Assembly: GCF_009914755.1 (NCBI RefSeq)
Contig: NC_060935.1
DNA length: 64,000 bases
DNA from: the human T2T-CHM13v2.0 reference genome, Homo sapiens
Direction: 5' to 3' (one strand)
How positions within the stretch are numbered: the stretch's first letter is position 1; every line of letters begins with the position of its first letter. Below are positions 353 through 16,999 of the stretch, one piece after another. Below the pieces are notes generated by a model that had not been told where the DNA came from, did not search any database, and saw only the letters and a program-made list of their open reading frames with translations. The translations under genes were made by a program, and so were the position numbers.

Positions 353-2782
353 GGAGAAAAGAAACAAGATGCCATGCCATTTCCTAGGTCATGAACAAAA
401 GATGGAAAGTATCATGTGGAAACTGACTGGTTGTGACTGAATTTTTATAAAAGTGAAACAATTGAAATATAAATAATTGACAATATCTCCGTTCTCCCTG
501 TCAGAAAATTATCTTCATGCAGGGGAAACCAAGACAAAGTTCTTGGTATGTGTAACAACTAGAGTGTTAAGAAAATTGGTTATTATAATTTATTATGGCC
601 TTCCAGTGGATTAAGCATAGACTACTTACAAATTGTCTCTCAATTTGTACAACACTCTTATGAATACAGTTTTATTATTCTCATATTAAGTAGTAACAGC
701 AGAATTTTATCATCATTTAGTAATTTGTCCAAGGTCAGATGATTAGAAATATATGCACCTTTCAAACCCAGAACATCCCTACTCTAATCCATGGTCTTTG
801 TTCAGTACCACACTGCTGTTCCTGTATGTTCTGAGGAGCATTATTACTTAATCAAAAAGATAATTTTCATTGCATTTATTTTAAAGGTGAAGTCAGTAAT
901 TTATTTTATAGTGATCGGTGTTTACTTACGGTGACAAGTACATTCTAACTGAGGTACTATATCTAGTTCCAGATAAATACATATAGGTTGAAAAGGCAAA
1001 TATTAGGGCTCTAGTACTGGCCACTTTGAATAGACGAAGACCTTAGTTCTGGAGCAGTTTTCTAGAGTCACAAGTTGTTCCAGGGACTGACTATACAGGT
1101 ATCTGGTCCTGGTGAAAGTTTCCTGGGAAGGATAGGCTAGCCAGTAAGGAGATGGAAGTCTTTAAGGAGCTTAGTTGTAGTTTCAGTTTTTGTTTTTTCC
1201 TTTGTAAATTAACAATTAGTATGGCCATACTTCTGAGTATCAGCAAGGTGTCAGTCCTGAATATACTGCTCAAGAAAACATACTTTGGATAGAAATACTC
1301 AAATTTTAATAGTAGCTGTTTATTCATGGTGGGATTGTTAGTGACTTTTATTTTCTTCTTTATACTTTTAATTAATTATTTCAACATATATTAATTAAAG
1401 GCCAACTGTATGGCATGCACTCCTCTATCCCTAGATTTCAGAAGTAAATAAGACAAGGTGCTTACTCCTGTTATTTTTGTTGATGTTACATTTTTAATTA
1501 GAAAATATTCAACTGAATTAAAGAAAGTATATCAAATCATTGGATGGTAAGATGAGGAAAAGGCTTGAGAAAAATTAATATTGTGCTTTAAAAGATTATA
1601 TTGCATTTATGAAAAATACATGGCAAAAAGCTGAGTAGTTTATCAAGTGTGGACACCTCCAATATTTTAGCAATTCAATTGAGAGTATTCAATTTGAATA
1701 AATGCTACTGAAATGTCTATTTAATATGCAAATGCCAATACAATATTGAGTGACCACAAGAGTTACCTTTAGAGGGACTCTGCTTCCAAGTTAAGAGTCT
1801 GCTCTGGTCAAGATTGAGTGAGAGTTCTCATTGTAATTTAATAAACATGATGATGCTTACATGTAGCTTCTTATTTCTTCAAGAAATTTGCAAGGCGGGG
1901 GAAAGATGTCAAGTCTGATTTCAGAAATTGTCAAAGACTTTCAATACTTAGGCTTCAAATGCTGGCTTTACAATCTTCTTTCTTATTTAACGTTTTTAGA
2001 GAAATGAAGGAAAGGGAAATTTGAAGTAAAATTAGAGAGAGATTCCATGTCCTTGGACAGAGGAAATTTAACAAGACAAGCAGGTTTTGACCAACCAGTT
2101 CCAGATATTGCGCTGTGTCAAATACAGTTCGGTCCAAATGTTCAAAATCTGCCGCTGCACACATATTTACAGGCTCTTCGTATCAATTAGTCTACTTTGT
2201 GCTCATGTAGAGAACTCCATGCATTACATTTCTATAAGGTGTTAACCAAAAAGACCGAGGAATTTTCCCCAGGCATGGAGATGTACAATGTCCCATATTC
2301 ATGGCACTTTTGCCAAACGCAGAACCTGTTTAGCAAGGTTTCTGTTTCTACCTCATGTGTAGTGGTGTTGCAATAGTGCATTGGGAAAGCACATTATGCT
2401 TGAGGATGATGCTGAAAATAAACCTGGGGAATGGAGGAGTCTTAAGTAGTACTTGGGTGCTGTCCAAACTGGCAATCTGAGTTGTTGCTCTGATAAACTA
2501 TTGTTTCAACTGGGCCTTCTTTTGAGAAGGCTTCAAGTCTTTAACTGTTCTGATGAAAACAATGCTTGGAGTTCCTTTTTTCTCCGTATTCAGACATATT
2601 TAGCTTCATTTGTGTTTGAACTGACCCCTTTCCCTGACCCCTTCTAATCAACCATATTAAAAGTATAGTACCGTGGTTTTCAAAACTTGTTAAGCAATAA
2701 TTATTTTTTCAACTAGAATTGATCTTGATTGTTCAATATATAAAACAGATAAAGAAGGGGCTTCCCTGGTGAGATTCTGTCT

Positions 2783-3108
<326 letters not shown>

Positions 3109-4744
3109 TAATTTGAAAACCTGGAATAATGGAAAGATGACAAGACCAGGAGTTACATTATGACTGGATTCTATTCAATAATTCAGTTCAATTTGATGAA
3201 CATTTATTGAGCATTTTCAGTGTGTCAAGCACTAAAAAAGCTAAGGAAAAAAAGACTAAAAAAACTTCAAGTGTAGTAAAAATCATGTATAAGAACAAGT
3301 GTAATAAGTGATAAAAAAGTGCTGAAGATGCACAAGCTCACTGATATATTTCAACCACCTGGGCCTTGTTTTCTTTAGATTTAAAATAAATAGCTTAGAA
3401 CAAACCACCTGCAGCATCTAACCTCCCTTATATTTGTGACTCTATGATTCTGATAGTCTGTGCTGTGAACTGTAAACTGAGGAAATGGAGCTATAAGAAC
3501 TAAGTGCAGCCTGTTCATCTTTGAAATTTTTTTAAGTTGAGAAGAGGGTGTCACTGCTGTCAGAGAGGCAGGTGTGAAAAGTAAATATAATGTGTAGTTG
3601 CTAAGGAACAGAGTTATGCTTTATTATCTTCAGCTTTTCTGGAATATCCCTTTCACCTCCATGAGTCATGTCAAACCTGGCTTTCCCCTGATAACAAAAA
3701 TGTCCTTCTCCTATGGAGGCCTCTGATCCTCTGACTCCATCTCCAAACCAGTTTCACAGGACCAAAGAAAGGAGCTGATAAACTTTCCAGAGTGGTTAAA
3801 AAGAACATAGGCAGCACACATTTCTTTGTACAATGTCTACTATGAACAAAGTGAAAATGCTCCCTAATCCACTTCCCACAAACAATTAGTGCTAATGCTT
3901 TGAGAGAGAGAGATATATCATATATATATAGGCATTATTTATATATCTAGATTTGTCAGTCTACCTACCTATATATATAAGCCTTCCCTATACCTATATC
4001 TGATTTGGTATTTCATTCTTTATAAATTTAATGACTTTCATTTTATACACTTTCATTTTTAAGTATCTTTATTTTAATATTTAACAAGTTTAATACACTC
4101 CCTCCCCTCCTCACCATCCCTCTGTTGCCATCTTTATTTTGAGCCATTATTCCTTTGCTCTTATATATCAGATTTCTGTGCTTTGAACCCCATGCTATTT
4201 CATTTCTGCTGTTTTTTCTACATCCCTATCTACCTATCTCCAGGATACTTCTTTATTGATGACACTCAAAGCGTGTTCTCAGATTTTCATTCCCACCTAT
4301 CAGAACCTATTTCATGTCTATCCAGGGAAGCATTGTATGGTAGACAGAGTATGAGTATTAGAATTAGGATGACTTTGGTTCCTATCATCCATGTGACTTC
4401 AGCAAGTCACTTAACCTCTCAGTACTCCAAATTTCTCATATGTTAAACTGAAGGTTAATAACAATAGCCATTTTATGAAACATTTCATGTACACCTCGTA
4501 CATGTAGTTCCCGTTCAGATTTTTATTGACTGTTAAGAGAATGGGTGTTATAGATGTTAGAAGTAATTTATCTAAAGTGATTATTAAAATACTTTATAAA
4601 TAATTGGAAGTCAAAACAAAATGACAGCATTATTTCTCCTGGCTTGACCTTATAGTTTTTGTATTGAGGTTCTACCACCTCAGTAACCATGACTTTGACT
4701 GCTCTTCTACCTCTTCCATCAGCACAACTGCTTATTCTCTAGGC

Positions 4745-6589: not shown

Positions 6590-7739
6590 GTACTTAAAAA
6601 GGTTCGGAAAGCAAAGAGGGTTTTCATTAGAATCAAGTCATATAATCTTTTTAATCACTTATTATTTAAAAAATTATTTTCTGTAATTTTTAGGTATAAT
6701 TTGCATAAGAGTGAAATCCACAGATTCTAAGAACAGTATGGTCACTTCTGAAAAATAAATGAACTTGTATAACCACCGTCACCCCTGTTAAAACATAGAT
6801 TACAATGCCTCAAGAGTTCTTGAGCCTCTTGCCTGTCAACCACTGTTTTAACTTTCAAAGTTAGCTATTTGTATTATTAATTGTATCTTTACTAATAATT
6901 TTAGTAGGGATTAGTAAATAACAATTTATTTCAATTAGTGTTTTGCATACTCAATTTTTCTGTATACCCTTTTTCTAATTAACAATTTTAAAAAGTGAGA
7001 ATGTGGATTACCTGAAAGTTGAGATAAATAAGCCATTAATAAAATACATATATCTCCAGCTGAGCATGGATTTTTAACAAAGGTTACCTCAATATTAAAA
7101 TTGAAAGTGGACACCCTACTTTCTGAGAAAGATTCAATATATTTTCTGTAATGCTATTACCTTCAAGCTAAAATTGCACCAAATTCAAGATTACCTTTAT
7201 TTTTTATATTTTGTGAAAGATGTTTTTTGCTCAAGTATATGCTGGAAATATAAATTAAGAAGAAAGCATGTGACAGACACATTTAAACTTTAAGCCTTGA
7301 CAGAGACCAATGATAATTAGGATTTGATTGAGCATTCTAAATGTTGTACACTACATTAAAAACCTTAAGTCCCAGCCTAGGAATCACTGTATGTTGTACT
7401 TGCTTACTTAATATTGTACCTTTTTTTCAGTTTTTGCTTTTCTTTGTAGCTCTTCTCCTATTTACTTCCTCTATATTCCACTTTCCTCTTAAGTTTTAAA
7501 TGTTTCATTTGGTAACAGTGATTCTGGTCTGCTATTTGAAAGCAGATCCAGTGCTTGGAGATTCTAATTTTTCCTGCAGACAATAATTTTCGGCTGTTTT
7601 GCTTCTTTTAGTCGTTTGTACTCTTTTAAAACTGCTGAAAATCAGTAGAGAGTAATGACTTATGGTAGTCCTGGGGAAAAAACAAAAATCAGAACACCAA
7701 CCAACCAACCAACAAAAACCAGCCTGAGGAATGTACCAG

Positions 7740-7950: not shown

Positions 7951-8060
7951 CAACTATGAACATTGTATTTTTTTTCTAACCAATACTGGTGCTGATTTTT
8001 AGTTACAAAGAAAGAAGGAGAAAAAACCTCAGTACCCCAATTTTCTTTTTTTTTTTTTTT

Positions 8061-8560
8061 AGTTTCTACAAATAATTTATTGGAATATAATTTGCACCCA
8101 TTTAAAGTGTCCAATTCAATGGTTTTTTTTGATATTCACAGAGCCGCACAACCCTCACTACAATCAATGTTTGACCATTTTCATTACCCCAGAAGAAAGC
8201 AGGTCCCTGTTAACAGTCACTCCCTATTTTCCCCCAAAAGTCCCTGCCCCTGGCCACCACCAATCTATTTCCTGACTGTGGATTTGCCTACCTTGGGCAT
8301 TTCATGTAAGCAGATCACACAATATGTGAGCAGATCATACATGAGCAGACCATACAATACATGATCCTTCCTGTCCGGCTCCTCTCACTTAGCCCTGTGT
8401 TTTCAAGGTCCTTCTATGCTGTAGTAAACATCCGTGCATCATTCCATGCATGGGTGCATACTTCATTTCTTTCTATTGCTGAATAACATTCCATTGTAGG
8501 GATACGCAATCTGTATTTCTCTATTCACCAGTTGCTTCAACATTTGGTTTCTACTGATCT
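8061..8560 (-). mobile_element. Old L1M (L1MB-like) 3' end
   Basis: TTTATTGGAATATAATT..CCCATTTAAAGTGT..CAATTCAATGG..GCTGAATAACATTCCATTGTA matches the reverse complement of an L1M 3' UTR. Confidence 0.8.
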
Positions 8561-8869
8561 GATTTTCCCCCAATCCAGTTTTCACCACACACAGAACCAA
8601 AGGATTGTGTAAGAGAAGCTGATAAGAGGATCTATAGAGAGCTCGTGACATTTCTGACCTTCTCCAAGGTTAGAAACCAACAGGGATAACATCTCTGCCC
8701 TTTACCCTCTAAGAGAATAGATGATGCTTTGAGGGTTAAAGGATACAACGTTTAGAACCTCTCCCTGATGAAACAAACAAACAAACCCAGATGTCTGCTT
8801 AGTAGCAAAAGAAAGAGAATAGGAGGTAGGAGTTGCCGTAAAGTAGAATAAAGGGAAAAAGAGAAACTC

Positions 8870-9062
8870 ATATTTGTCAAGTATATTATTGCCAGTATCA
8901 GGCCTTTTATGGCGATTATTCCTTTTAATTCTCATAAATACTCAACAACTTATATGATGTGATATTTACTGCTTTCATTTTATAAATTAAAAAATTGAGG
9001 CCTAAGGAGTGTTAGTTGTTTGCCACACACAGGCAGCTACAAAGCAGTTGGGCTTATCCAGC
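8870..9062 (-). mobile_element. MIR fragment abutting the HERV-W LTR end
   Basis: TTTAATTCTCAT..CATTTTATAAATTAAAAAATTGAGGC..CACAGGCAGCT resembles the MIR core. Confidence 0.55.
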
Positions 9063-9838
9063 TGTTACCAGCAGGTCTTTGTTCTTAGAGCTCCCAAGAT
9101 GGTGGCAGGCCACTCCCAAGATGGGGTGGGCTGCTCCCAAGATGGCGGCAAGACTTTTGTTCTCTGACCTGGGGTTCTTGGCCTCACGGATTCCAAGGAA
9201 TGGAACCTTGGGCCCTGTGGTGAGTGCTATAGCTCTGTTAGAAGCCGTGGGTCATGGAAGAGAACTGTGGAACCCAGTGACTAGTGTTCAGCTCAATTAG
9301 GACGAACCCGAGCACTTAGCCATGTGGGAACAATGACAAGCCTCTAGCTGGATCCAGAGCGGCAAAGGGCGCCTCGCTGGATCAGGAGCACAGCGGACAC
9401 CCTGCTGGATCCGGAGGGGTGGAAGTCAGTGGCGGGTCTGCAAATGGCAGTGGTGGACGGCAAGCGAAAGCTCAGCTTGAGCCGTAACAAACACGGACCA
9501 GAAGAGTGTGCAGCTGCAAGATTTAGTAGAGTGAAAACAGAGCTCCCATACAATGGGAGGGGACCCAAAGGGGGTTGCCCACTCCCGTCTCGAATGCCTA
9601 GGGTTTATATCCCGAATATTGTCCCTCCCCCACGCTCTCAGGCAATATATGATTTGACTATTTCTTTACCTCCTGCTTTTAGCCTAATTGGTATTTTAGT
9701 GAGTCCTCTTTACTACCTAATTGGTTGGGTGTGAGGTGAGTTACAAGCCCCGTGTTTAAAGGTAGGTGCGGTCCCCTTCCCCAGCTAGGCTTAGGAATTC
9801 TTAGTCAGCCTAGGAAATCCAGCTAGTACTGCCTCTCA
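9063..9838 (-). mobile_element. 3' LTR17, complete U3-R-U5
   Basis: Starts TGAGAGGCAGTACTAGCTGGATTTCCTAGG right after the polypurine tract and ends GGTAACA; CCAAT at 9720-9724 and 9687-9691, TATAAA at 9604-9609; poly(A) signal reads ACTAAA at 9522-9527. Confidence 0.95.
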
Positions 9839-9852
9839 GTCCCCACTCTCAA
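9839..9852 (-). other. HERV-W polypurine tract
   Basis: GAGAGTGGGGAC immediately upstream of the 3' LTR TG. Confidence 0.8.
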
Positions 9853-9899
9853 CAGGAAAACTCAAGTGATGTTGGGGAGGTTGGCCAACGACCACTCTT

Positions 9900-10364
9900 A
9901 ACTGCTTCCTGCTGAATTGGGGCGTAGTAGGGGTCGTGCAGTTGAGATTTCCTCGGGAGGGGTGCCTTTGATGTCATTAACATCAGAGCATGGGCTAGCA
10001 GGCTGGTCCAGGGGTCTGCAGTAGATCTTAGTCATGGACTGCATCTGGGGCTCCATTTGAAGAACGATTTGTAGTTTTACAACTTCGATTCTGGAAGAGA
10101 CATACTTAACAAGGAGGTTAAAGATACAGGGATTGAAATGTATGGCCTGAAGTGCAGGGGTATATGGTTGTGGGTGGTGAAAGTGGGGTCTCCTTTAGAA
10201 AAACCCCTATACGATGGGACATCAATATTTCTGGGAAGCCACATTCTCCATAGAACCTCTTGGTAAGAGGAGCTACTGGTAGTACAGCAGCATGGAGGAA
10301 GTGAAGTGAGAGTGAAAGGGGGTAAGAGAACAGTAAAAAGAAAAATGTGACAAAGGAGGGCCAT
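9900..10364 (-). pseudogene. HERV-W env remnant (syncytin-1 paralogue) with large internal deletions
   Basis: Signal peptide region MALLCHIFLFTVLLPPFTLT.., a retained LHFRPYISIP island, then the TM cytoplasmic tail (CIFNLLV..KLQIVLQMEPQMQS) in another frame. Confidence 0.9.
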
Positions 10365-10391
10365 GGGGATCCACGATTCTAGTTACTTTCC

Positions 10392-11889
10392 TCATGGTTG
10401 TCGCTTGAAGAGCAGGTGCAGATCCTCTAGAGGTTCACAGGAATACCCAGCATTGTCTCCTGGATTTTCGGGCTCCTTTGGCAGTATCCAGGGTTTGACT
10501 TGAGCGTGATGTATCCAAGACTCCACTCCAGCCACTTTAACCATGGTTGGGGTAGATAAAATGACTGGGTAGGGTCCTTCCCAGGATGTATCTAGGGATG
10601 GGGAATTAGAGGGAAGGGACTTGACTAATACCATGTCACCAGGGTGGAATAATTCCTTTCCCTCCTCTCAGGGACAGGTTCCCTGTAATGTTTTAAGAAC
10701 TTGTTGACATTTAGCTAAGGAGGTGATGTCTTCAATTAAGTTGGCTCTCTCTCGGTCAAACACAAGGTCATTGGTTAGGAAGGGCCATCCATACAGCATC
10801 TTGTATGGACTAAGTCACACTTTTGGGAGAGAGTTACGGATTCTTAGTAAGGCTATAGGCCACAGAGCAGGCCATGCGAGGTGGGTTTCTTAGGTTAGCT
10901 TTTTTAGATGTTGTTTGAGTGTTTCTTTCATTTTCTCGGCTTTTCCTGAGGATTGTGGCCTCCAGGTGCAGTGTAAGTGATATTGTATGCCTAACACCTG
11001 GGATACTCCCTGGGTTACTGAAGCCTTGAAAGCGGCGCCATTGACACTCTGTAAGCCTTGGGGAAGTATGAATCTGGGAATTATTTCATGAATTAGTGCC
11101 TTTATTACCTCTTGGGCCTTTTCTGTCCTACAAGGGAAGGCCTCTGCCCAACCAGTGAAAGTATCTACCCAGACTAGTAGATACTGAAATCCCTGAGATT
11201 TGGGCATGTGGGTAAAATCTAGTTGCCAGTCTTCTCCTGGGTAATGGCCTGTTCTTTGTTCTCCTGAAGGAGCTTGGTGATAAGGCAGGGGATTATTTCT
11301 TTGGCACACTTCACAGGCCCTGACTATCTGCTTGATAGTTTTGAAAAGGCCTGGTCCAGTAAATAATGTTTTGGCCATCTGATGGGTGCTATCAATGCCT
11401 AAGTGAAAGGTTTGGTGAAGGTTTTTAAGTAATTTCCGTTGGTTAGCTGCAGGCAAAAGTATTTTTCCTTCTTAATGGGCTAGCCATCCTGAGGGGAGGA
11501 AACTATGTCCTCTCGTGAGTTTCCCCATTCTGTTTCTTTTGCTGAGTACTGGGGCTTGGTTTCCCGGAGGGGATTACTCCATATGAGGGGTCCTTCTATA
11601 AGCATTTCTAATGGAGGGTACCGCCTTACAGTTCTTTTGTCTTCAATATCTGCTTGGTGGTTCCCTTCTATTTCCCTTTCCTTTCCTTTCTGATGACCCT
11701 GGAAGTGTAAGACTGCCACCTCTTTAGGTTTCTGTACAGCCAATAATAGTCTCCTAATGGCTTCCTGATGTTTGATAGATGTTCCCTCGGAAGTTAGGAA
11801 TTCCCTTTCTCTCCATATTGCTGCGTGGGCATAGGGGACTAGGTAAGCATACTTAGAGTCTGTATACATATTTACCCTTTTTCCTTCTC
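10392..11889 (-). pseudogene. HERV-W pol remnant: RNase H and integrase
   Basis: YTDSKYA (RNase H); HQTFH..CEVC zinc finger, WQLDFTHM core and WEGPYPVILSTPT C-terminus (integrase); frameshifted. Confidence 0.93.
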
Positions 11890-12162
11890 CTAATTCAAGT
11901 GTATAATGGCCCCTGCTTTTGCTAGGATGTCTCTCTCTAACAAAGGAGTGGGGCTTTCAGGCATAATTAGAAAGGCATGTGAAAAGAGTAAAGTTCCCCA
12001 GTCACAACTTAGTGTCTGGGAGAAGTATCTAGTGATTGCCTGTCCTAGGACCCCTTGGATAGTGACAGATCTGGAGGACAGATGTCCGGGGCAGGACAGT
12101 AAGACTAAGAAGGCCGCGCCAGTGTCCTGGGGACAGTTAAACTCCTGGCCCTCAATGGTCAA
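11890..12162 (-). pseudogene. HERV-W protease remnant
   Basis: DTGA active-site motif and PTPLLERDIL (LLGRD motif mutated). Confidence 0.9.
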
Positions 12163-12236
12163 GCATACCCGGGGCTCTGTGAGGGTGATGGCATGGGCTG
12201 GCGCTTGCCCCGGGCACCCTCAGTCCTGCTGCTGGA

Positions 12237-13679
12237 TCATCTGGTTAGTGGCTTCTGACCCAGAGGACCTTCATTCCCTGGGGAAGTGGGCCTTCCAGTG
12301 ATTCCCTTCACATAAGGGGCATGGACAAGGAGGTGGCTTATTTCTATTTGGACAATCTTTTTTAAAGTGTCCGTGTAGACCGCAGTGGAAGCAAGCCCTA
12401 TTAGACATGTGATTTGCCCAGCCTTTCCCTGTTCCAGAGCCTCCAAAGTCCGCTTGCTGAGGGCCATGACTAAAGCGGTGGCCTTCTTTTTATCCTGTTC
12501 GTCCCGTTCCGCCTGCTCTTCCTGATCTCTATTATAAAAAACCAAGGTTACCAAGTTAAATAGGGTTTCTAAGTTTTGCTCGGGGCCTAAGGCAGACTTT
12601 TGAAGTTTTTTTCTAATGTCTGCAGCTGACTGAGTGATAAGCTTATCCTTTAAGATTACCTGGCCGTCAATAGAGTCAGGTGACAGAGAGGTATGCTTCC
12701 CCAATGCCTCCCTTAGTCTCTCCAGGAAGGCAGTAGGATTTTCTTCCTTTCCCTGTGTTATAGTGGACATCATTGAATAATTCAAAGCCTTCTTCCTAGT
12801 TTTCCTTAGTCCTTCTAGCATGCAAGTTAGCAAATGTCTGCGGCACCAATCTCCATCTTCTGATTTTGCGTCCCAATGAGGGTCTACACTGGGAACTGCC
12901 TGCTGGCCTGTGGGGAATCATTCTCTTTCCTCTGTTGTCATCCTATCATTGAACTGACTGAGACGCCAGAGATCACCAAACTCTCGGGCTGCAGCTATGG
13001 CGGCACTTCTCTCATTTGGGGTTAGTGCCTGATTTAGCAGTAACATTATATCTCTCCATGTCAGATCAAAGGATTGTCCTAACCCTTGTAAAACATCAAT
13101 ATAGCCATCAAGGTTATCTGAGAATTCACCTAGGTCTATTTTAATTTGCTTCAAGTCTGAGAGGGAAAAAGGTACATGCACTCTGACTGGGCCAAATTCT
13201 CCTCCTCCCACCACTTGGAGGGGGCGTAATCGGGTAATACTGGCACTCTTGGGTTCATTGTTTACCCCTTTGTCTATCTCTTTTTGGACTGTTTGGGTTG
13301 AAGGGGGGTCTTTATTAGTTGGGGAAGGAGCTGGGAGAACACCAGGGCAGGGAGGTAGACTCTGAGGGCTTCCTGTAGGGCATAAATTACACTTTTTACA
13401 TAATTGAGAGTTTTCTCTTAATGAAAAGAAAGTTTGCACATATGGCACTTCACTCTATTTGCCCTCCTTTCTACAAAGGAGATCTAGCTGTAAGATGATG
13501 TTATAATATATACTTCCCTCAGGGGGCCAGGTTTCTCCCCCTTGAAGAGTATATTGTGGCCTGGCGGGACTGCAGAAGAATATAAGTTGTTTCTTTCTTA
13601 GCGTGTGAGGGTCAAATTGGTCCCAATTCTCCAGAATACATCTTAGGGGCATTTTTGCCTTGGGGGGAATGTTTCCCAT
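12237..13679 (-). pseudogene. HERV-W gag remnant
   Basis: MGNIPPKAKMPLRCILENW.., VPFSLSDLKQIK, major homology region QGKEENPTAFLERLREAL; several stops and frameshifts. Confidence 0.93.
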
Positions 13680-14797
13680 CTGAAAAAAGAACATAGGGAT
13701 GCCAGGATCCCCAGTCATTTTCCAATGAGCTTTAGTCCTAGAGCGTCCTCTATGGTGTTAATGCTTATTCCTTTCCAGGGTGTGTAACCAACCATGGACC
13801 TCTGCTTATCGGATTAGTTACACTCACCAGTGTAGCAGTCCTGCACCCTTTTTCCTGCCTTTCTTGACCACAAAGAAAGGGGTCCAGGCTGCTGGATTCT
13901 AGTGGTCCTTTACCAGCATGCCCAACATTGCCTTTGGCTCAGGGGTGAGTCCTAGAGCTGGGCTGGATTCCTGAGTATTTCAAACAACCCAGCTGCCCCA
14001 TCCAGATTCATTCCCATAAACAACAGTTCTTATGCGAATTCGTTTTGGAGAGGGTGTAGGTAACCTTTTGACTCAGTATTGAGATAGAGTTGTTTTTTTT
14101 TTGTTTTTTTTTTTTTTTATTCTGTAAGTACTTTAAGGCTTGGCTGAGTGCAAACAGCTCACACGTTTGAGCAGACCAATTATTAGGCAATTCTCCTAAC
14201 TCTGCTTCCACAAGAGTCTCCCTATCAATTACTGAATACCCATTGTGGTTTTTTCTCAATCACCCGGGAGGAACCATCTGTCGTCCTGAAGGGAGTTCCT
14301 CCTAGGTCTGATCGGACTTTGTATGGTAATTAAGATTGAAATCCCCTGTTAGGAAATCTGCTGGGTTAAGAGAATTTTCAGTGGTTAGTGTTAAATCACC
14401 TTTTTCTAACAGAATAGCCGCATACTTTAAGATTTTTGAGTTAGTAAGCTACTTTTTTGCTTTTTTTGATTTAGGATAGCTCTGAACTGGTGAGGTGTGC
14501 TCACAATGAGGTTTCCTCTAAAGGTTATTTTTCTACTTTCTTCTGTTAGCAAGACAGTTGCCACTACCAATTGAATGCATTTGGGCCATTCGCGGGTTAC
14601 TGAGTTAAGAATTTTTGATAGGAAGGCTATGGGTTGTCAGTGGTCTCAGTGTTTTGGGCTATGCCCTTGTTTACATTGACAACAAGGTAATATTGGAGTG
14701 TTATAGGGTCACGGAGAAGACCTTCAATTATCAATTACAGGTTTTAAATTTACCCTGGCTTTTAAAGGAATAGGGCACACTGTTTTTCCTTTACTAT

Positions 14798-14925
14798 TTC
14801 TATCTTTCTCTTTCTCTCTTTCTTTCTCCTTTGACTTTCTGTCTCTCTCTGTTTGACTCATCTTTTGTCTCTGTTTCTTCCTCTCTCTCTCCCTCTCTGC
14901 CTCTCTCTTTCTCCTCTCTGCCTCT
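14798..14925 (-). repeat. AG-rich expansion in the HERV-W pre-gag leader
   Basis: (TC)-rich degenerate tract on the + strand inside the long HERV-W leader. Confidence 0.8.
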
Positions 14926-15765
14926 GTAGAAGGATTTTGGAAACATAGTGGAAGGACATTCGCTTGTTGCCCCCATTTGCCACTATAGGAATATGTGCCT
15001 CCCTTTAATTTACTCAATTCATTTTCATCCTGATCTATTATGTTGTTGTAGACCCAGTTCCAGTTGTTAAAGTACTGGGTTATCAATTCTAAGGCCCTGG
15101 CAAGGGTGGTGGGGAACGGGTCCCACATAACTGCCCATGTCGAGAGCTGTATGCCTGAATTGGGAGAGTCACCAGGGCCAAGACTCCCTGGGTTCATTGC
15201 CTAGGTGCTTAAGGACACAGCGTAGAGCTTCCTTAGATCCCTTTGGAGATACAACCTGCTCTAATACTTGGGAACGGAAGTGAAAGTCTGAAGCATTAGT
15301 ACCTAGGAGGCAGGGATCAGAGGAAGTAGATTCAGAGGTAAGGAGAATTTTGGGGCTACACTTTCAAGAAAGTCGTGGTTAGGACCCAGGAGATATGGGT
15401 CAGAAGGAGAGGTAGGGGCACACACATGGGCAACTGTTGAGTAGAGACTTCTGGCTGTGCAATGATCTCCACCGGCCAATGCCAGGAGTTCAGGACGACA
15501 GCTTTCTGCCTCTAGCCGACCCTCGGCTTCCCTAGGAAAATTGTGAAAGCAGAAGCTGGTTCCAGGCAGAACAAAGCTCCCAACACAGAAGGGTTGGGGA
15601 TTGTTAGAAAGCTTTTTCCCAGGAAACCTCACACCTGAGTCCAGCAGCCACGCTAATCGTTTTTAACTGGCTGATGGGTGCCCGGTTATTTTCCTCCAAT
15701 TCTAAGGAAGGATAGGACAGAATAGCAAGTGAAAGTGGTTCAATATTACTCACCGCTTTGGAGAA

Positions 15766-15783
15766 GCGCCGTACGGGCCACCA
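15766..15783 (-). promoter_or_regulatory. Primer-binding site, tRNA-Ile(AAU)-type
   Basis: TGGTGGCCCGTACGGCGC two nt after the 5' LTR; 16/18 match to TGGTGGCCCGTACGGGGA; followed by the splice donor AAAGCG/GTGAGT. Confidence 0.8.
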
Positions 15784-15785
15784 AA

Positions 15786-16311
15786 TGTTACCGGTGGGTC
15801 TTTGTTCTTAGAGTTCCCAAGATGGTGGCAGGCCACTCCCAAGATGGGGCGGGCTGCTCCCAAGATGGCAGCAAGCCTTTTGTTCTCTGACCTGGGGTTC
15901 TTGGCCTCACGGATTCCAAGGAATGGAACCTTGGGCCATGCGATGAGTGATATAGCTCTATTAGAAGCCATGGGTCACAGAAGGAACCATGGAACCCAGT
16001 GACTAGTGTTCAGCTGGATTAGGACGAACCTGGGCACTTAGCCGTGCAGGAACAACGGCAAGCCTCTAGCTGGATCCGGAGCGGCAATGGGCGCCTCGCT
16101 GAATCAGGAGCACAGTGGACACCCTGCCGGATCTGGAGGGGTTGAAGTCAGCGGTGGGTCTGTGACAGTGGCAAACAGCAGTGGTGGACAGCAAGCAAAA
16201 GCTCAGCTCGAGCCGTAACAAACACGGACCAGAAGAGTGTGCAGTTGCAAGATTTAATAGAGTGAAAACAGAGCTCTCATACAATGGGAGGGGACCCAAA
16301 GAGGGTTGCCC
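15786..16311 (-). mobile_element. 5' LTR17, R-U5 only (U3 absent)
   Basis: Aligns to 9063-9580 of the 3' LTR and stops about 24 nt downstream of the position where the TATA box would end; ATTAAA intact at 16253-16258. Confidence 0.93.
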
Positions 16312-16999
16312 CAGTACCACAGATTTCTAAAACATATATGTGAGTTCTTAGTTGTGTCCACAAAGTCTTGAATGGTGTAAGATAGAGCCCGTCTAGAAAA
16401 AAAATAAAACAGCAATCGTTTTCTTAACTGTTTAAACGGGAAAGCTGACAGTTCAGGAATTTCTTTACTTATTCCACTGAGTCCTTTTCAGTCCATGTAG
16501 AGTCCACCCAGAATATGAATTTGGGAGTTTCTTCTCTTGTCTTTCTTTTCTTCTCCTTCACCACGAGAGTTTGTTCTTTTGTTCTCTCTCCTACACCATC
16601 TCTCTGTAAGCTCTGGACGAGTAGCATTTGGCCTTTATTGTGATTCTTGGAGAAGGCTTTATTTGAGTCTTTAGATAATTTTGAATAAGCATATGCAGGT
16701 CAAAATGGTCAATATTTAGCTCAGTAATATTGATTGCATCATTTTGATGAGCTGTGCTGACAAAAAGTCCCTGCTTCTTGGTTCCAGTAAAAGAAATCAC
16801 ACCCCTCTAGCAGTGTATGCTAATAGATACACTAATTAATGATGTATAAACACAGGGAGAAGAGGAAAAGGGAAAAATAAAATTTTAATTTATTATTTTC
16901 ATAATTTAATTTTAATTATGAGATAAGATATCTCAATATAAAGAAGAAAAGCAATATGACGTGATTTGGGTAAAGAATTATCATTTTTATATTTTATAG

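What the first reader, a model, noticed from the sequence alone, without database searches (positions are those of the whole stretch)
8030..16328. HERV-W read-through transcript retroposed by L1 with a ~1 kb 3' transduction
Seen in sequence: (1) The 5' LTR lacks U3 and begins about 24 nt after the TATA position, like an mRNA 5' end. (2) The 3' LTR is nevertheless complete (U3-R-U5). (3) Its poly(A) signal is ACTAAA (9522-9527), versus ATTAAA in the 5' LTR (16253-16258). (4) About 1 kb further downstream on the same strand is AATAAA (8076-8081), followed 15 nt later by a pure A15 run (8046-8060). (5) The whole block is bracketed by CAGTACCCCAATTTTCT (8030-8046) and CAGTACCACAGATTTCT (16312-16328), 14/17 identical, and the right copy ends TTTCT/AAAA, an L1-endonuclease-type site. 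Established: HERV-W forms L1-generated processed pseudogenes, normally R-U5...U3-R-poly(A). Inference: a source provirus with a crippled poly(A) signal read through U5 into its flank, polyadenylated at an old L1M signal, and was inserted here by target-primed reverse transcription. That would move host DNA and, unusually for such a copy, an intact U3 promoter.
Basis: partly seen in the sequence, partly recalled or inferred. Interest (0 to 1): 0.9.

Follow-up and report, generated by a model that had tools for sequence, protein, structure and literature searches.

The report
L1-copied HERV-W carrying chromosome 6 DNA
This endogenous retrovirus in an ANO3 intron, catalogued as a provirus, is really an L1-made copy of a run-on retroviral RNA that dragged along 1 kb of chromosome 6, and no parent provirus is found at or near that chromosome 6 site today.

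Summary
All five sequence observations hold. The element (minus strand, 16311-8046) starts at the LTR transcription start. It has a complete 3' LTR, then 1,002 bp of non-viral DNA, AATAAA, A15 and a 14/17 target-site duplication at a TTTCT/AAAA site.

The 1,002 bp have one paralogue in this genome, chr6:167,765,835-167,766,836. It is 94.1% identical with no gaps, and the match is bounded to the base by the LTR end and the poly(A) start. The core reading, an L1-retroposed read-through HERV-W RNA with a 3' transduction, is therefore strongly supported (about 0.88).

The twist is that no LTR17 or HERV-W abuts the chr6 segment. The 130 kb scanned upstream hold only HERV-W 6q27a and a 0.6-kb inverted duplicate of part of it. 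6q27a cannot be the parent, because it carries the family's recurrent gag deletion and the chr11 copy does not. The parent provirus was therefore most likely lost, probably never fixed.

One rival stays open. The chr6 segment begins right after ...CCTCACCCCAG|G, so it could be a downstream exon spliced on rather than contiguous flank.

The ACTAAA "crippled signal" is a derived state, but when it arose is unknown. Grandi 2016 lists this locus (11p14.2) as a provirus. The searches that worked found no description of a HERV-W transduction.

The parts
16312..16328 (.). Upstream copy of the 17-bp target-site duplication. On the + strand it is followed by AAAA, giving a TTTCT/AAAA L1-endonuclease-type nick site.
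   Evidence: 14 of 17 identical to 8030-8046; p about 3.5e-5 at fixed register and 5e-4 with slack.
15786..16311 (-). 5' LTR reduced to R-U5, with no U3. It starts at the LTR transcription start. ATTAAA lies at 16258-16253.
15766..15783 (-). Primer-binding site (TGG...), 3 nt after the LTR end. The tRNA type was not assigned by any tool.
   Evidence: Position as described for HERV-W in Grandi 2016, section 12 (read).
13680..15765 (-). Non-coding pre-gag leader. The gag ATG lies at 13679-13677.
   Evidence: alignment. Grandi 2016, passage of section 6 seen (2-kb region between the 5' LTR and gag).
13203..13624 (-). A 422-nt gag segment that this copy keeps. HERV-W 6q27a and at least 39 other copies lack it.
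   Evidence: Grandi 2016: nt 2780-3209 deleted in 45% of copies (passage seen).
9839..13679 (-). Broken gag-pro-pol remnant: Gag_p30 (12917-12237), protease (12219-11890), RNase H (11956-11480), integrase zinc finger and core (11471-10890), integrase C-terminal domain (10667-10392). There is no reverse-transcriptase or env match.
   Evidence: 6 of 13 stop-to-stop frames hit Pfam retroviral families, and 0 of 13 hit an RT or env family.
9063..9838 (-). Complete 3' LTR: U3 9838-9581, TATAAA 9609-9604, R from 9580, ACTAAA 9527-9522, U5 to GGTAACA at 9063.
8061..9062 (-). Transduced host DNA, 1,002 bp, copied from chr6:167,765,835-167,766,836. AATAAA lies at 8081-8076. The last ~250 bp belong to an old interspersed repeat.
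   Evidence: 943 of 1,002 identical, no gaps, one full-length paralogue in the genome.
8046..8060 (-). Poly(A) tail, A15, absent from the chr6 source.
8030..8046 (.). Downstream copy of the target-site duplication.

Best explanation
The element is an L1-made retrocopy, not an integrase-made provirus.

Proposed steps:
1. A HERV-W provirus was transcribed from the normal start in its 5' LTR.
2. RNA polymerase ran past the poly(A) signal in the 3' LTR R region, through U5 and into host DNA on 6q27.
3. The RNA was cleaved and polyadenylated 15 nt after the AATAAA of an old repeat, 1,002 nt beyond the LTR.
4. L1 endonuclease nicked the ANO3 intron at TTTCT/AAAA and L1 reverse transcriptase copied the whole RNA there. 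This left R-U5...U3-R-U5, 1,002 bp of chr6 DNA, A15 and a 17-bp target-site duplication.

This happened before the ape/Old World monkey split. The parent provirus is not at the chr6 site nor within 130 kb upstream. The most likely reason is that it sat directly against the 1,002 bp on an allele that never fixed, so the empty allele is what survives.

Shown: the anatomy, the chr6 origin of the 1 kb, the exact boundaries and the absence of a donor. Inferred: read-through as the mechanism, L1 as the copier, and loss of the donor allele.

The confidence of 0.88 is for the retrocopy-with-transduction core. Within it I put contiguous flank at about 0.55 and a spliced-on exon at about 0.3. I put loss of the donor at about 0.8.
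For: Anatomy: the 5' end lies at the canonical R start. The 3' LTR is complete to GGTAACA. AATAAA, 15 nt and A15 follow.

Target-site duplication: 14 of 17 identical, directly abutting the R start and the A-run. Chance gives 69 of 2,000,000 at fixed register and 20 of 40,000 with slack.

Source of the 1 kb: of 42 matches, the only full-length ones are the window itself and chr6:167,765,835-836 at 94%. The other 40 are partial repeat hits at 71-83%.

Boundaries: a query of window 17000-7500 matches chr6 only over 9062-8061. Identity is 943 of 1,002 with 0 gaps. A chr6 query spanning the junction matches chr11 only from the junction onward. The 150-nt flanks beyond both ends score like shuffles, against 132 versus 11.6 for the positive control.

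Direction of copying: chr6 has no A-run after ...GTAGAAACT and continues as ordinary DNA on both sides, so chr6 is the source.

No donor: BLAST of the whole element against chr6:167,636,001-167,772,000 finds no LTR17. It finds only 6q27a (167,690,820-693,351, + strand) and a 0.6-kb inverted partial copy of it.

6q27a is excluded as the parent. It lacks 422 nt that the chr11 copy has. All 39 other primary hits to its deletion junction span that junction in one piece, so the deletion is inherited. Its non-CpG divergence from chr11 is 183/2324, against 47/974 for the transduced segment (p=0.0016).

Published catalogue: in the passage of Grandi 2018 Table S1 seen, 6q27a and 6q27b are the only rows between 6q24.2b and 7p21.3. 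6q27b lies 511 kb downstream of the site.

Timing: the two R-U5 copies differ no more than the transduced segment differs from chr6 (non-CpG 27/469 against 47/974, p=0.45), so the parent was young when it was copied. Orthologues of 11p14.2 are listed in chimpanzee, gorilla, orangutan, gibbon and rhesus (Grandi 2018 Table S1).
Against: The donor predicted by the model, an LTR17 abutting the paralogue, was not found, so one link of the chain is missing and has to be explained by loss.

The chr6 segment starts immediately after GCCTCACCCCAG|G. A motif this acceptor-like (YAG with at least 7 of 8 pyrimidines) occurs at only 0.21% of positions in the 136 kb scanned, or 0.054% if +1 G is also required. 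This is a coincidence under contiguous read-through and favours the spliced variant.

A HERV-W element (6q27a) on the same strand 72 kb upstream is also an unlikely coincidence. My estimate is about 0.5-1%, from 213 loci in 3.1 Gb.

The duplication has 3 mismatches in 17. At 5.9% divergence, 3 or more is expected with p=0.075.

No orthologous empty site could be examined in any other species.
Confidence: 0.88

Rival explanations
1. Spliced variant. This is still an L1 retrocopy of a read-through HERV-W RNA. But the 1,002 nt are a downstream terminal exon joined to the end of U5 by splicing, so the parent provirus sat some distance upstream on chr6 rather than against the segment.
For: chr6 reads GGGCTCAGAGCCTCACCCCAG|GCTGG at the boundary. 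An acceptor-like motif this good occurs at 0.21% of local positions, or 0.054% with +1 G. Grandi 2016 (Table 3 passage) places + strand lincRNA models over 6q27a, so + strand transcription of the region is plausible.
Against: It needs a working 5' splice site exactly at the first flank base after the LTR's terminal CA, with a poor exon end (ACA). My estimate for that is 0.05-0.5%, about as unlikely as the acceptor coincidence. No LTR17 or HERV-W other than 6q27a lies in the 130 kb upstream, and 6q27a is excluded. So this variant also needs a lost donor. The known cases of 3' transduction that I recall are unspliced run-on (recalled, no call).
Confidence: 0.3
2. Ordinary provirus (the published class) that later lost its 5' U3 by deletion. 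The 14/17 repeat would then be chance, and the downstream 1 kb would be native chr11 DNA.
For: Grandi 2016 marks 11p14.2 with the asterisk for proviruses (Table 2 passage). The 3' LTR is complete.
Against: The 1 kb is a copy of chr6 bounded exactly by the LTR end and an A15 that chr6 lacks. The deletion would have had to stop exactly at the transcription start and exactly at a 17-mer matching the one after the A-run (p between 3.5e-5 and 5e-4). The chr11 flanks beyond the element are unrelated to the chr6 flanks.
Confidence: 0.02
3. Two-RNA chimera. L1 reverse transcriptase first copied a polyadenylated chr6 transcript to its 5' end, then switched template to a HERV-W RNA.
For: L1-made chimeric retrocopies of two RNAs are known (recalled, for example U6-L1 chimeras; no call). 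This would explain why no provirus abuts the chr6 segment.
Against: The second template would need a 3' end exactly at the last base of U5. Only integrated or linear viral DNA has that end; no HERV-W RNA species does. A read-through RNA would bring its own flank into the junction, and none is seen. The first RNA would also need to start exactly after a CAG.
Confidence: 0.04
4. A provirus integrated into a pre-existing chr11 retrocopy of a chr6 transcript.
For: It would explain chr6-derived DNA with a poly(A) next to a complete LTR.
Against: The upstream copy of the duplication abuts the HERV-W R start, not the 5' end of the chr6-derived piece. The provirus would have had to land exactly at the retrocopy's first base and then lose U3 precisely.
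Confidence: 0.01

Closest known systems
HERV-W processed pseudogenes made by L1 (Pavlicek 2002 and Costas 2002, recalled and not readable here; definition as quoted in Grandi 2016, PMC5016936, section 5)
   Same: The 5' LTR starts at R (about nt 256). There is a poly(A) tail, a TT/AAAA-type target and a variable-length target-site duplication. The internal region carries the family's recurrent deletions.
   Different: The 3' LTR does not stop in R at nt 326. It runs through U5 to the LTR end, and 1,002 bp of DNA from another chromosome sit between it and the poly(A). The 17-bp duplication is slightly above the quoted 5-15 bp.
L1 and SVA 3' transduction (recalled: Moran 1999; Goodier 2000; Pickeral 2000; SVA transduction families)
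   Same: The element's own poly(A) signal is bypassed and a downstream signal is used. The flank is carried to a new locus and maps uniquely back to a source site.
   Different: The passenger RNA is a retroviral genome mobilised in trans, not the L1 or SVA itself. The source site no longer holds the source element.
Transductions whose source element is absent from the reference genome (recalled from studies of polymorphic and somatic L1)
   Same: The flank identifies where a source element sat even though that element is not in the reference.
   Different: Here the event is about 25-30 My old and the missing source is a retrovirus, so the absence reflects ancient loss rather than present-day polymorphism.
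Integrase-made HERV-W proviruses (the class to which Grandi 2016 assigns 11p14.2)
   Same: Complete U3-R-U5 3' LTR, and a gag-pro-pol remnant with a PBS.
   Different: There is no 5' U3 and no 4-bp duplication around TG...CA. The element is instead bracketed by a 17-bp duplication and a poly(A) 1 kb beyond the LTR.

Membership tests
HERV-W (LTR17/HERV17) | LTRs homologous to LTR17 | tested here: met
   all 39 other scored places match the 3' LTR at 85-88%, near full length; a U5 36-mer has 520 matches with up to 3 mismatches genome-wide, against 0 for the reversed control.
HERV-W (LTR17/HERV17) | Gammaretrovirus-type internal genes and catalogued locus | tested here: met
   Gag_p30, RVP, RNase_H, Integrase_H2C2, rve and MLVIN_C; 39 other copies at 89-92%. 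Listed as 11p14.2, ANO3 intron 14, antisense (Grandi 2016).
L1-mediated processed pseudogene | 5' end at the RNA start (R, about nt 256 of LTR17) | tested here: met
   it starts at the position that is nt 254-262 (median 258.5) in 30 full LTR17 copies, 24 nt after TATAAA.
L1-mediated processed pseudogene | Poly(A) tail shortly after a poly(A) signal | tested here: met
   AATAAA, 15 nt, then A15. The chr6 source has no A-run.
L1-mediated processed pseudogene | Target-site duplication bracketing the whole insert, at a TT/AAAA-like site | tested here: met
   14 of 17 identical, p between 3.5e-5 and 5e-4; TTTCT/AAAA.
L1-mediated processed pseudogene (canonical HERV-W form) | 3' LTR ends in R (nt 326), directly followed by poly(A) | tested here: not met
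   the 3' LTR is complete to GGTAACA and is followed by 1,002 bp. This is the variant feature.
3' transduction | The extra 3' segment maps uniquely to another locus with sharp boundaries at the element end and the poly(A) | tested here: met
3' transduction | The source locus abuts a copy of the element | tested here: not met
   no LTR17 at the junction nor within 130 kb upstream or 5 kb downstream. 6q27a is excluded.
Integrase-made provirus | Two complete LTRs (TG...CA) flanked by a 4-bp duplication | tested here: not met
   the 5' LTR lacks U3. One search shows 4-bp duplications around other LTR17 copies, for example ATAG, AAAT and CCAC; there is none here.
Empty-site proof of insertion | Orthologous locus in outgroup species with one copy of the duplicated 17-mer and no insert | not testable with these tools
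   No primate genomes other than the window's own are held.

The most novel reading that the evidence does not exclude
The chr11 element is the only surviving record of a 'ghost' HERV-W provirus. That provirus integrated at chr6:167,765,834/835 (CHM13), was transcribed in the germ line of an early catarrhine and was copied once by L1. It then vanished because its allele never fixed. This would be the first HERV-W processed copy whose source site can be mapped. It would also be direct evidence that short-lived, unfixed proviruses fed the L1-driven HERV-W expansion.
Probability: 0.5. Interest if true: 0.7.

Novelty: new variant of a known kind. Interest (0 to 1): 0.6.

Why it matters
HERV-W is, per Grandi 2017 (abstract in the listing), the only HERV group specifically mobilised by L1, and the sources of its roughly 135 processed copies are unmapped.

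This locus gives a mapped source site. It also gives a clock independent of LTRs: the transduced DNA against its parent has K2P 0.062, or about 24-31 My at 1.0-1.3e-9 per site per year. And it indicates that the parent was young and then lost.

It corrects a catalogue entry. 11p14.2 is counted among 65 proviruses, and dating it by LTR-LTR divergence (K2P 0.092) as if it were a provirus is not valid.

It shows that retroviral RNAs mobilised by L1 can move host DNA between chromosomes and deposit a complete LTR. It also suggests that other "proviruses" with R-start 5' LTRs should be re-examined.

No function of the copy for ANO3 is indicated.

Tried and rejected
(1) MIR continuity across the chr6 junction, which would prove an untouched empty site. 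BLAST of the junction region against about 300 kb of held human DNA gave 0 hits and 2 trivial hits. The own-genome search gave only the two known places. My impression that a MIR runs through the junction rests on recall only.

(2) Naming the terminal repeat as L1M. Of 46 upstream ORF fragments from 7 repeat copies, 0 matched an L1 family in Pfam; there was one sub-threshold chance hit. The name is unverified. The repeat does have 40 partial copies at 71-83%.

(3) 6q27a as the donor. Rejected. Shared variants are not informative because the family is star-like: chr11 and 6q27a share 4 variants, and other pairs share 0-7.

(4) A large rearrangement separating a provirus from the flank. Only a 1.8-kb inverted duplication at 95.6% was found, 42 kb from the site.

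(5) A wider chr6 scan (200 kb) and a 12-copy tree. I scanned 136 kb and used 4 copies instead.

(6) Listing all LTR17 copies near 6q27 by pattern. Of 520 matches only 100 were listed, and none of the 92 exact ones lies near chr6:167.7 Mb, so this is not exhaustive.

Table S1 of Grandi 2016 is not among the held supplements. These may bear on prior description and on the LTR details recorded for 11p14.2.

Full report
**Observation.** On the minus strand the element runs from 16311 to 8046.
- Its 5' LTR has no U3. It begins GGGCAACCC, the bases that in its own 3' LTR lie 24 nt after TATAAA.
- In an alignment with 29 other full-length LTR17 copies this point falls at nt 254-262, median 258.5. Grandi 2016 (PMC5016936, section 5 read) gives nt 256 as the start of L1-made HERV-W pseudogenes.
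- The 3' LTR is complete (9838-9063) and ends GGTAACA, as most copies do.
- At the R poly(A) hexamer the 3' LTR reads ACTAAA and the 5' LTR reads ATTAAA. Of 31 aligned LTR17 sequences 26 read ATTAAA, and only this 3' LTR and one unrelated copy (L021) read ACTAAA.
- After the LTR come 1,002 bp, with AATAAA at 8081-8076, then 15 nt, then A15.
- A 17-mer directly after the A-run matches the 17-mer directly before the R start at 14 of 17 positions. Chance gives this in 69 of 2,000,000 random pairs at fixed register, and in 20 of 40,000 with +-3 nt slack and free length.
- The inferred nick site is TTTCT/AAAA.

**Origin of the 1 kb.** An own-genome search with 9062-8061 returned 42 matches. Apart from the window itself, the only full-length match is chr6:167,765,835-167,766,836 on the + strand, at 94%. 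The other 40 are partial hits of up to about 260 nt at 71-83%: 38 fall on an old interspersed repeat that makes up the last quarter of the segment, and two short ones (about 63-65 nt) lie further upstream.

A BLAST of window 17000-7500 against 17 kb around the chr6 site matched only 9062-8061. The alignment has 943 of 1,002 identities and no gaps. A chr6 query spanning the upstream junction matched chr11 only from the junction onward. The 150 nt beyond either end score like shuffled sequence, whereas the positive control scores 132 against 11.6.

chr6 has no A-run after ...GTAGAAACT. It continues into other DNA, including an Alu. So chr6 is the source and chr11 holds an RNA-mediated copy, cut 15 nt after the AATAAA.

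**The missing donor.** It does not. Upstream of the boundary chr6 reads ...GGGCTCAGAGCCTCACCCCAG and then GCTGGAT..., with no LTR.

I fetched chr6:167,636,001-167,772,000 in pieces and ran BLAST with the whole element, LTRs included. This found only two things:
- A 2.5-kb LTR-less HERV-W fragment on the + strand at 167,690,820-693,351, 72 kb upstream. By its size, strand and 586-kb distance to the next locus this is Grandi's 6q27a.
- A 0.6-kb inverted partial copy of it, belonging to a 1.8-kb inverted duplication.

No LTR17 remnant lies beside 6q27a. In the passage of Grandi 2018 Table S1 that I saw, 6q27a and 6q27b are the only rows between 6q24.2b and 7p21.3. 6q27b lies 511 kb downstream of the site.

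**Is 6q27a the parent?** No, for three reasons.
- It lacks 422 nt of gag (window 13624-13203) that the chr11 copy retains. A 501-nt query across its deletion junction matched all 39 other primary hits in one piece. The deletion is therefore the inherited, recurrent one that Grandi 2016 reports in 45% of copies (passage seen), and not a later loss.
- Its divergence from the chr11 copy is 124/1439 in gag-pro and 105/1005 in pre-gag. The non-CpG total is 183/2324, above the 47/974 of the transduced segment (p=0.0016).
- It is no closer to chr11 than four other copies are (7.3-8.2% against 8.6%; 4 shared variants where other pairs share 0-7).

**Timing.** The transduced segment against its parent gives K2P 0.0616, or about 24-31 My at 1.0-1.3e-9 per site per year (the rates are my assumption). 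Grandi 2018 Table S1 lists orthologues of 11p14.2 in chimpanzee, gorilla, orangutan, gibbon and rhesus, which fits insertion before the ape/Old World monkey split.

The two R-U5 copies differ by 27/469 at non-CpG sites, against 47/974 for the flank. The difference is 0.9%, with a 95% interval of -1.6 to +3.4% (p=0.45). So the parent's LTRs had diverged little when the RNA was made, and the parent was a young provirus.

**Mechanism and why the donor is gone.** The simplest chain has five steps:
1. A provirus integrated at chr6:167,765,834/835.
2. It was transcribed from its 5' LTR.
3. Transcription read through the R poly(A) site.
4. The RNA was polyadenylated at the repeat's AATAAA.
5. L1 inserted a copy on chr11 by target-primed reverse transcription.

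A fixed provirus cannot leave without at least a solo LTR, and chr6 is collinear with the copy to the base. So the provirus-bearing allele was probably lost by drift. A back-of-envelope neutral calculation (my inference, no call) suggests that roughly 10-30% of retrocopies could stem from proviral alleles that never fix, so this is not far-fetched.

**The open rival.** The chr6 segment begins just after an acceptor-like CCTCACCCCAG|G. Such a motif occurs at 0.21% of local positions, or 0.054% with +1 G. The 1 kb could therefore be a terminal exon spliced to the end of U5. That would need a 5' splice site exactly at the first flank base after the LTR, which I judge about equally improbable. It would still need a vanished donor, because nothing suitable lies upstream. 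I put contiguous read-through at about 0.55 and the spliced variant at about 0.3. Either way the core reading stands.

**Other rivals.** These fail on the exact boundaries:
- A provirus that lost its 5' U3.
- A provirus integrated into an older retrocopy.
- An L1 template-switch chimera.

ACTAAA is a derived state, but it may have arisen after insertion, and read-through of retroviral poly(A) sites also happens with intact signals (recalled). Carrying a U3 is normal for HERV-W processed copies. The unusual features are the U5 and the host DNA.

**Internal state.** Of 13 stop-to-stop frames, 6 hit retroviral Pfam families: Gag_p30, protease, RNase H, integrase zinc finger and core, and integrase C-terminal domain. 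None hits a reverse-transcriptase or env family. This fits the recurrent pol and env deletions described by Grandi 2016. All frames are broken.

**Literature.** Grandi 2016 marks 11p14.2 as a provirus in ANO3 intron 14, antisense (Table 2 passage). Seven full-text searches were attempted. Four ran, and passage look-ups were made in six papers. None found a description of read-through or 3' transduction for HERV-W, or of this locus as a retrocopy. The search for 6q27a returned only Grandi 2016.

**Limits.**
- No outgroup genomes were available.
- Repeat family names (MIR, L1M) are unverified.
- A solo LTR17 more than 130 kb upstream is not excluded.

Noticed in passing
L056:6770-8573 and L049:5849-7576 (chr6:167,692,770-694,573 and 167,723,576-721,849): A 1.8-kb inverted duplication (95.6% over 1,256 bp, 88% over 479 bp). 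It carries the last ~580 bp of HERV-W 6q27a plus 1.2 kb of its flank. Both copies show the same odd junction, gag-pro sequence followed by 48 nt resembling the leader.
   Followed up: partly
L021 (chr21:18,408,866-18,409,647, minus strand): A second full-length LTR17 with the same ACTAAA change at the R poly(A) hexamer. Overall it is only 87% identical to the chr11 3' LTR, so this is probably a parallel T>C change.
   Followed up: no
window 10392-10667 (minus strand): This copy keeps the integrase C-terminal domain (MLVIN_C, E=1.3e-12), a region Grandi 2016 reports deleted in about 84% of HERV-W copies. It lacks any reverse-transcriptase match, so it combines a rare retained part with a recurrent deletion.
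   Followed up: partly
window 7420-7499 (minus strand): The first exon of the predicted lncRNA LOC124902648 (hub table) starts 547 bp downstream of the retrocopy's poly(A), on the same strand. Whether the copy's complete 3' LTR or run-on transcription feeds it was not examined.
   Followed up: no
L012:1837-2100 (chr6, just after the cleavage site): An Alu in reverse orientation sits 6 nt after the position where the donor RNA was cleaved. It is absent from the chr11 copy, as expected, because it lies beyond the poly(A) site. Its age relative to the event was not examined.
   Followed up: no
L018 and L034 (chr7:40,324,895-40,331,220): The two LTRs of one HERV-W provirus show the expected 4-bp duplication (AAAT) and a PBS after the 5' LTR. 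This served as an internal example of the integrase-made architecture that the chr11 element lacks.
   Followed up: partly
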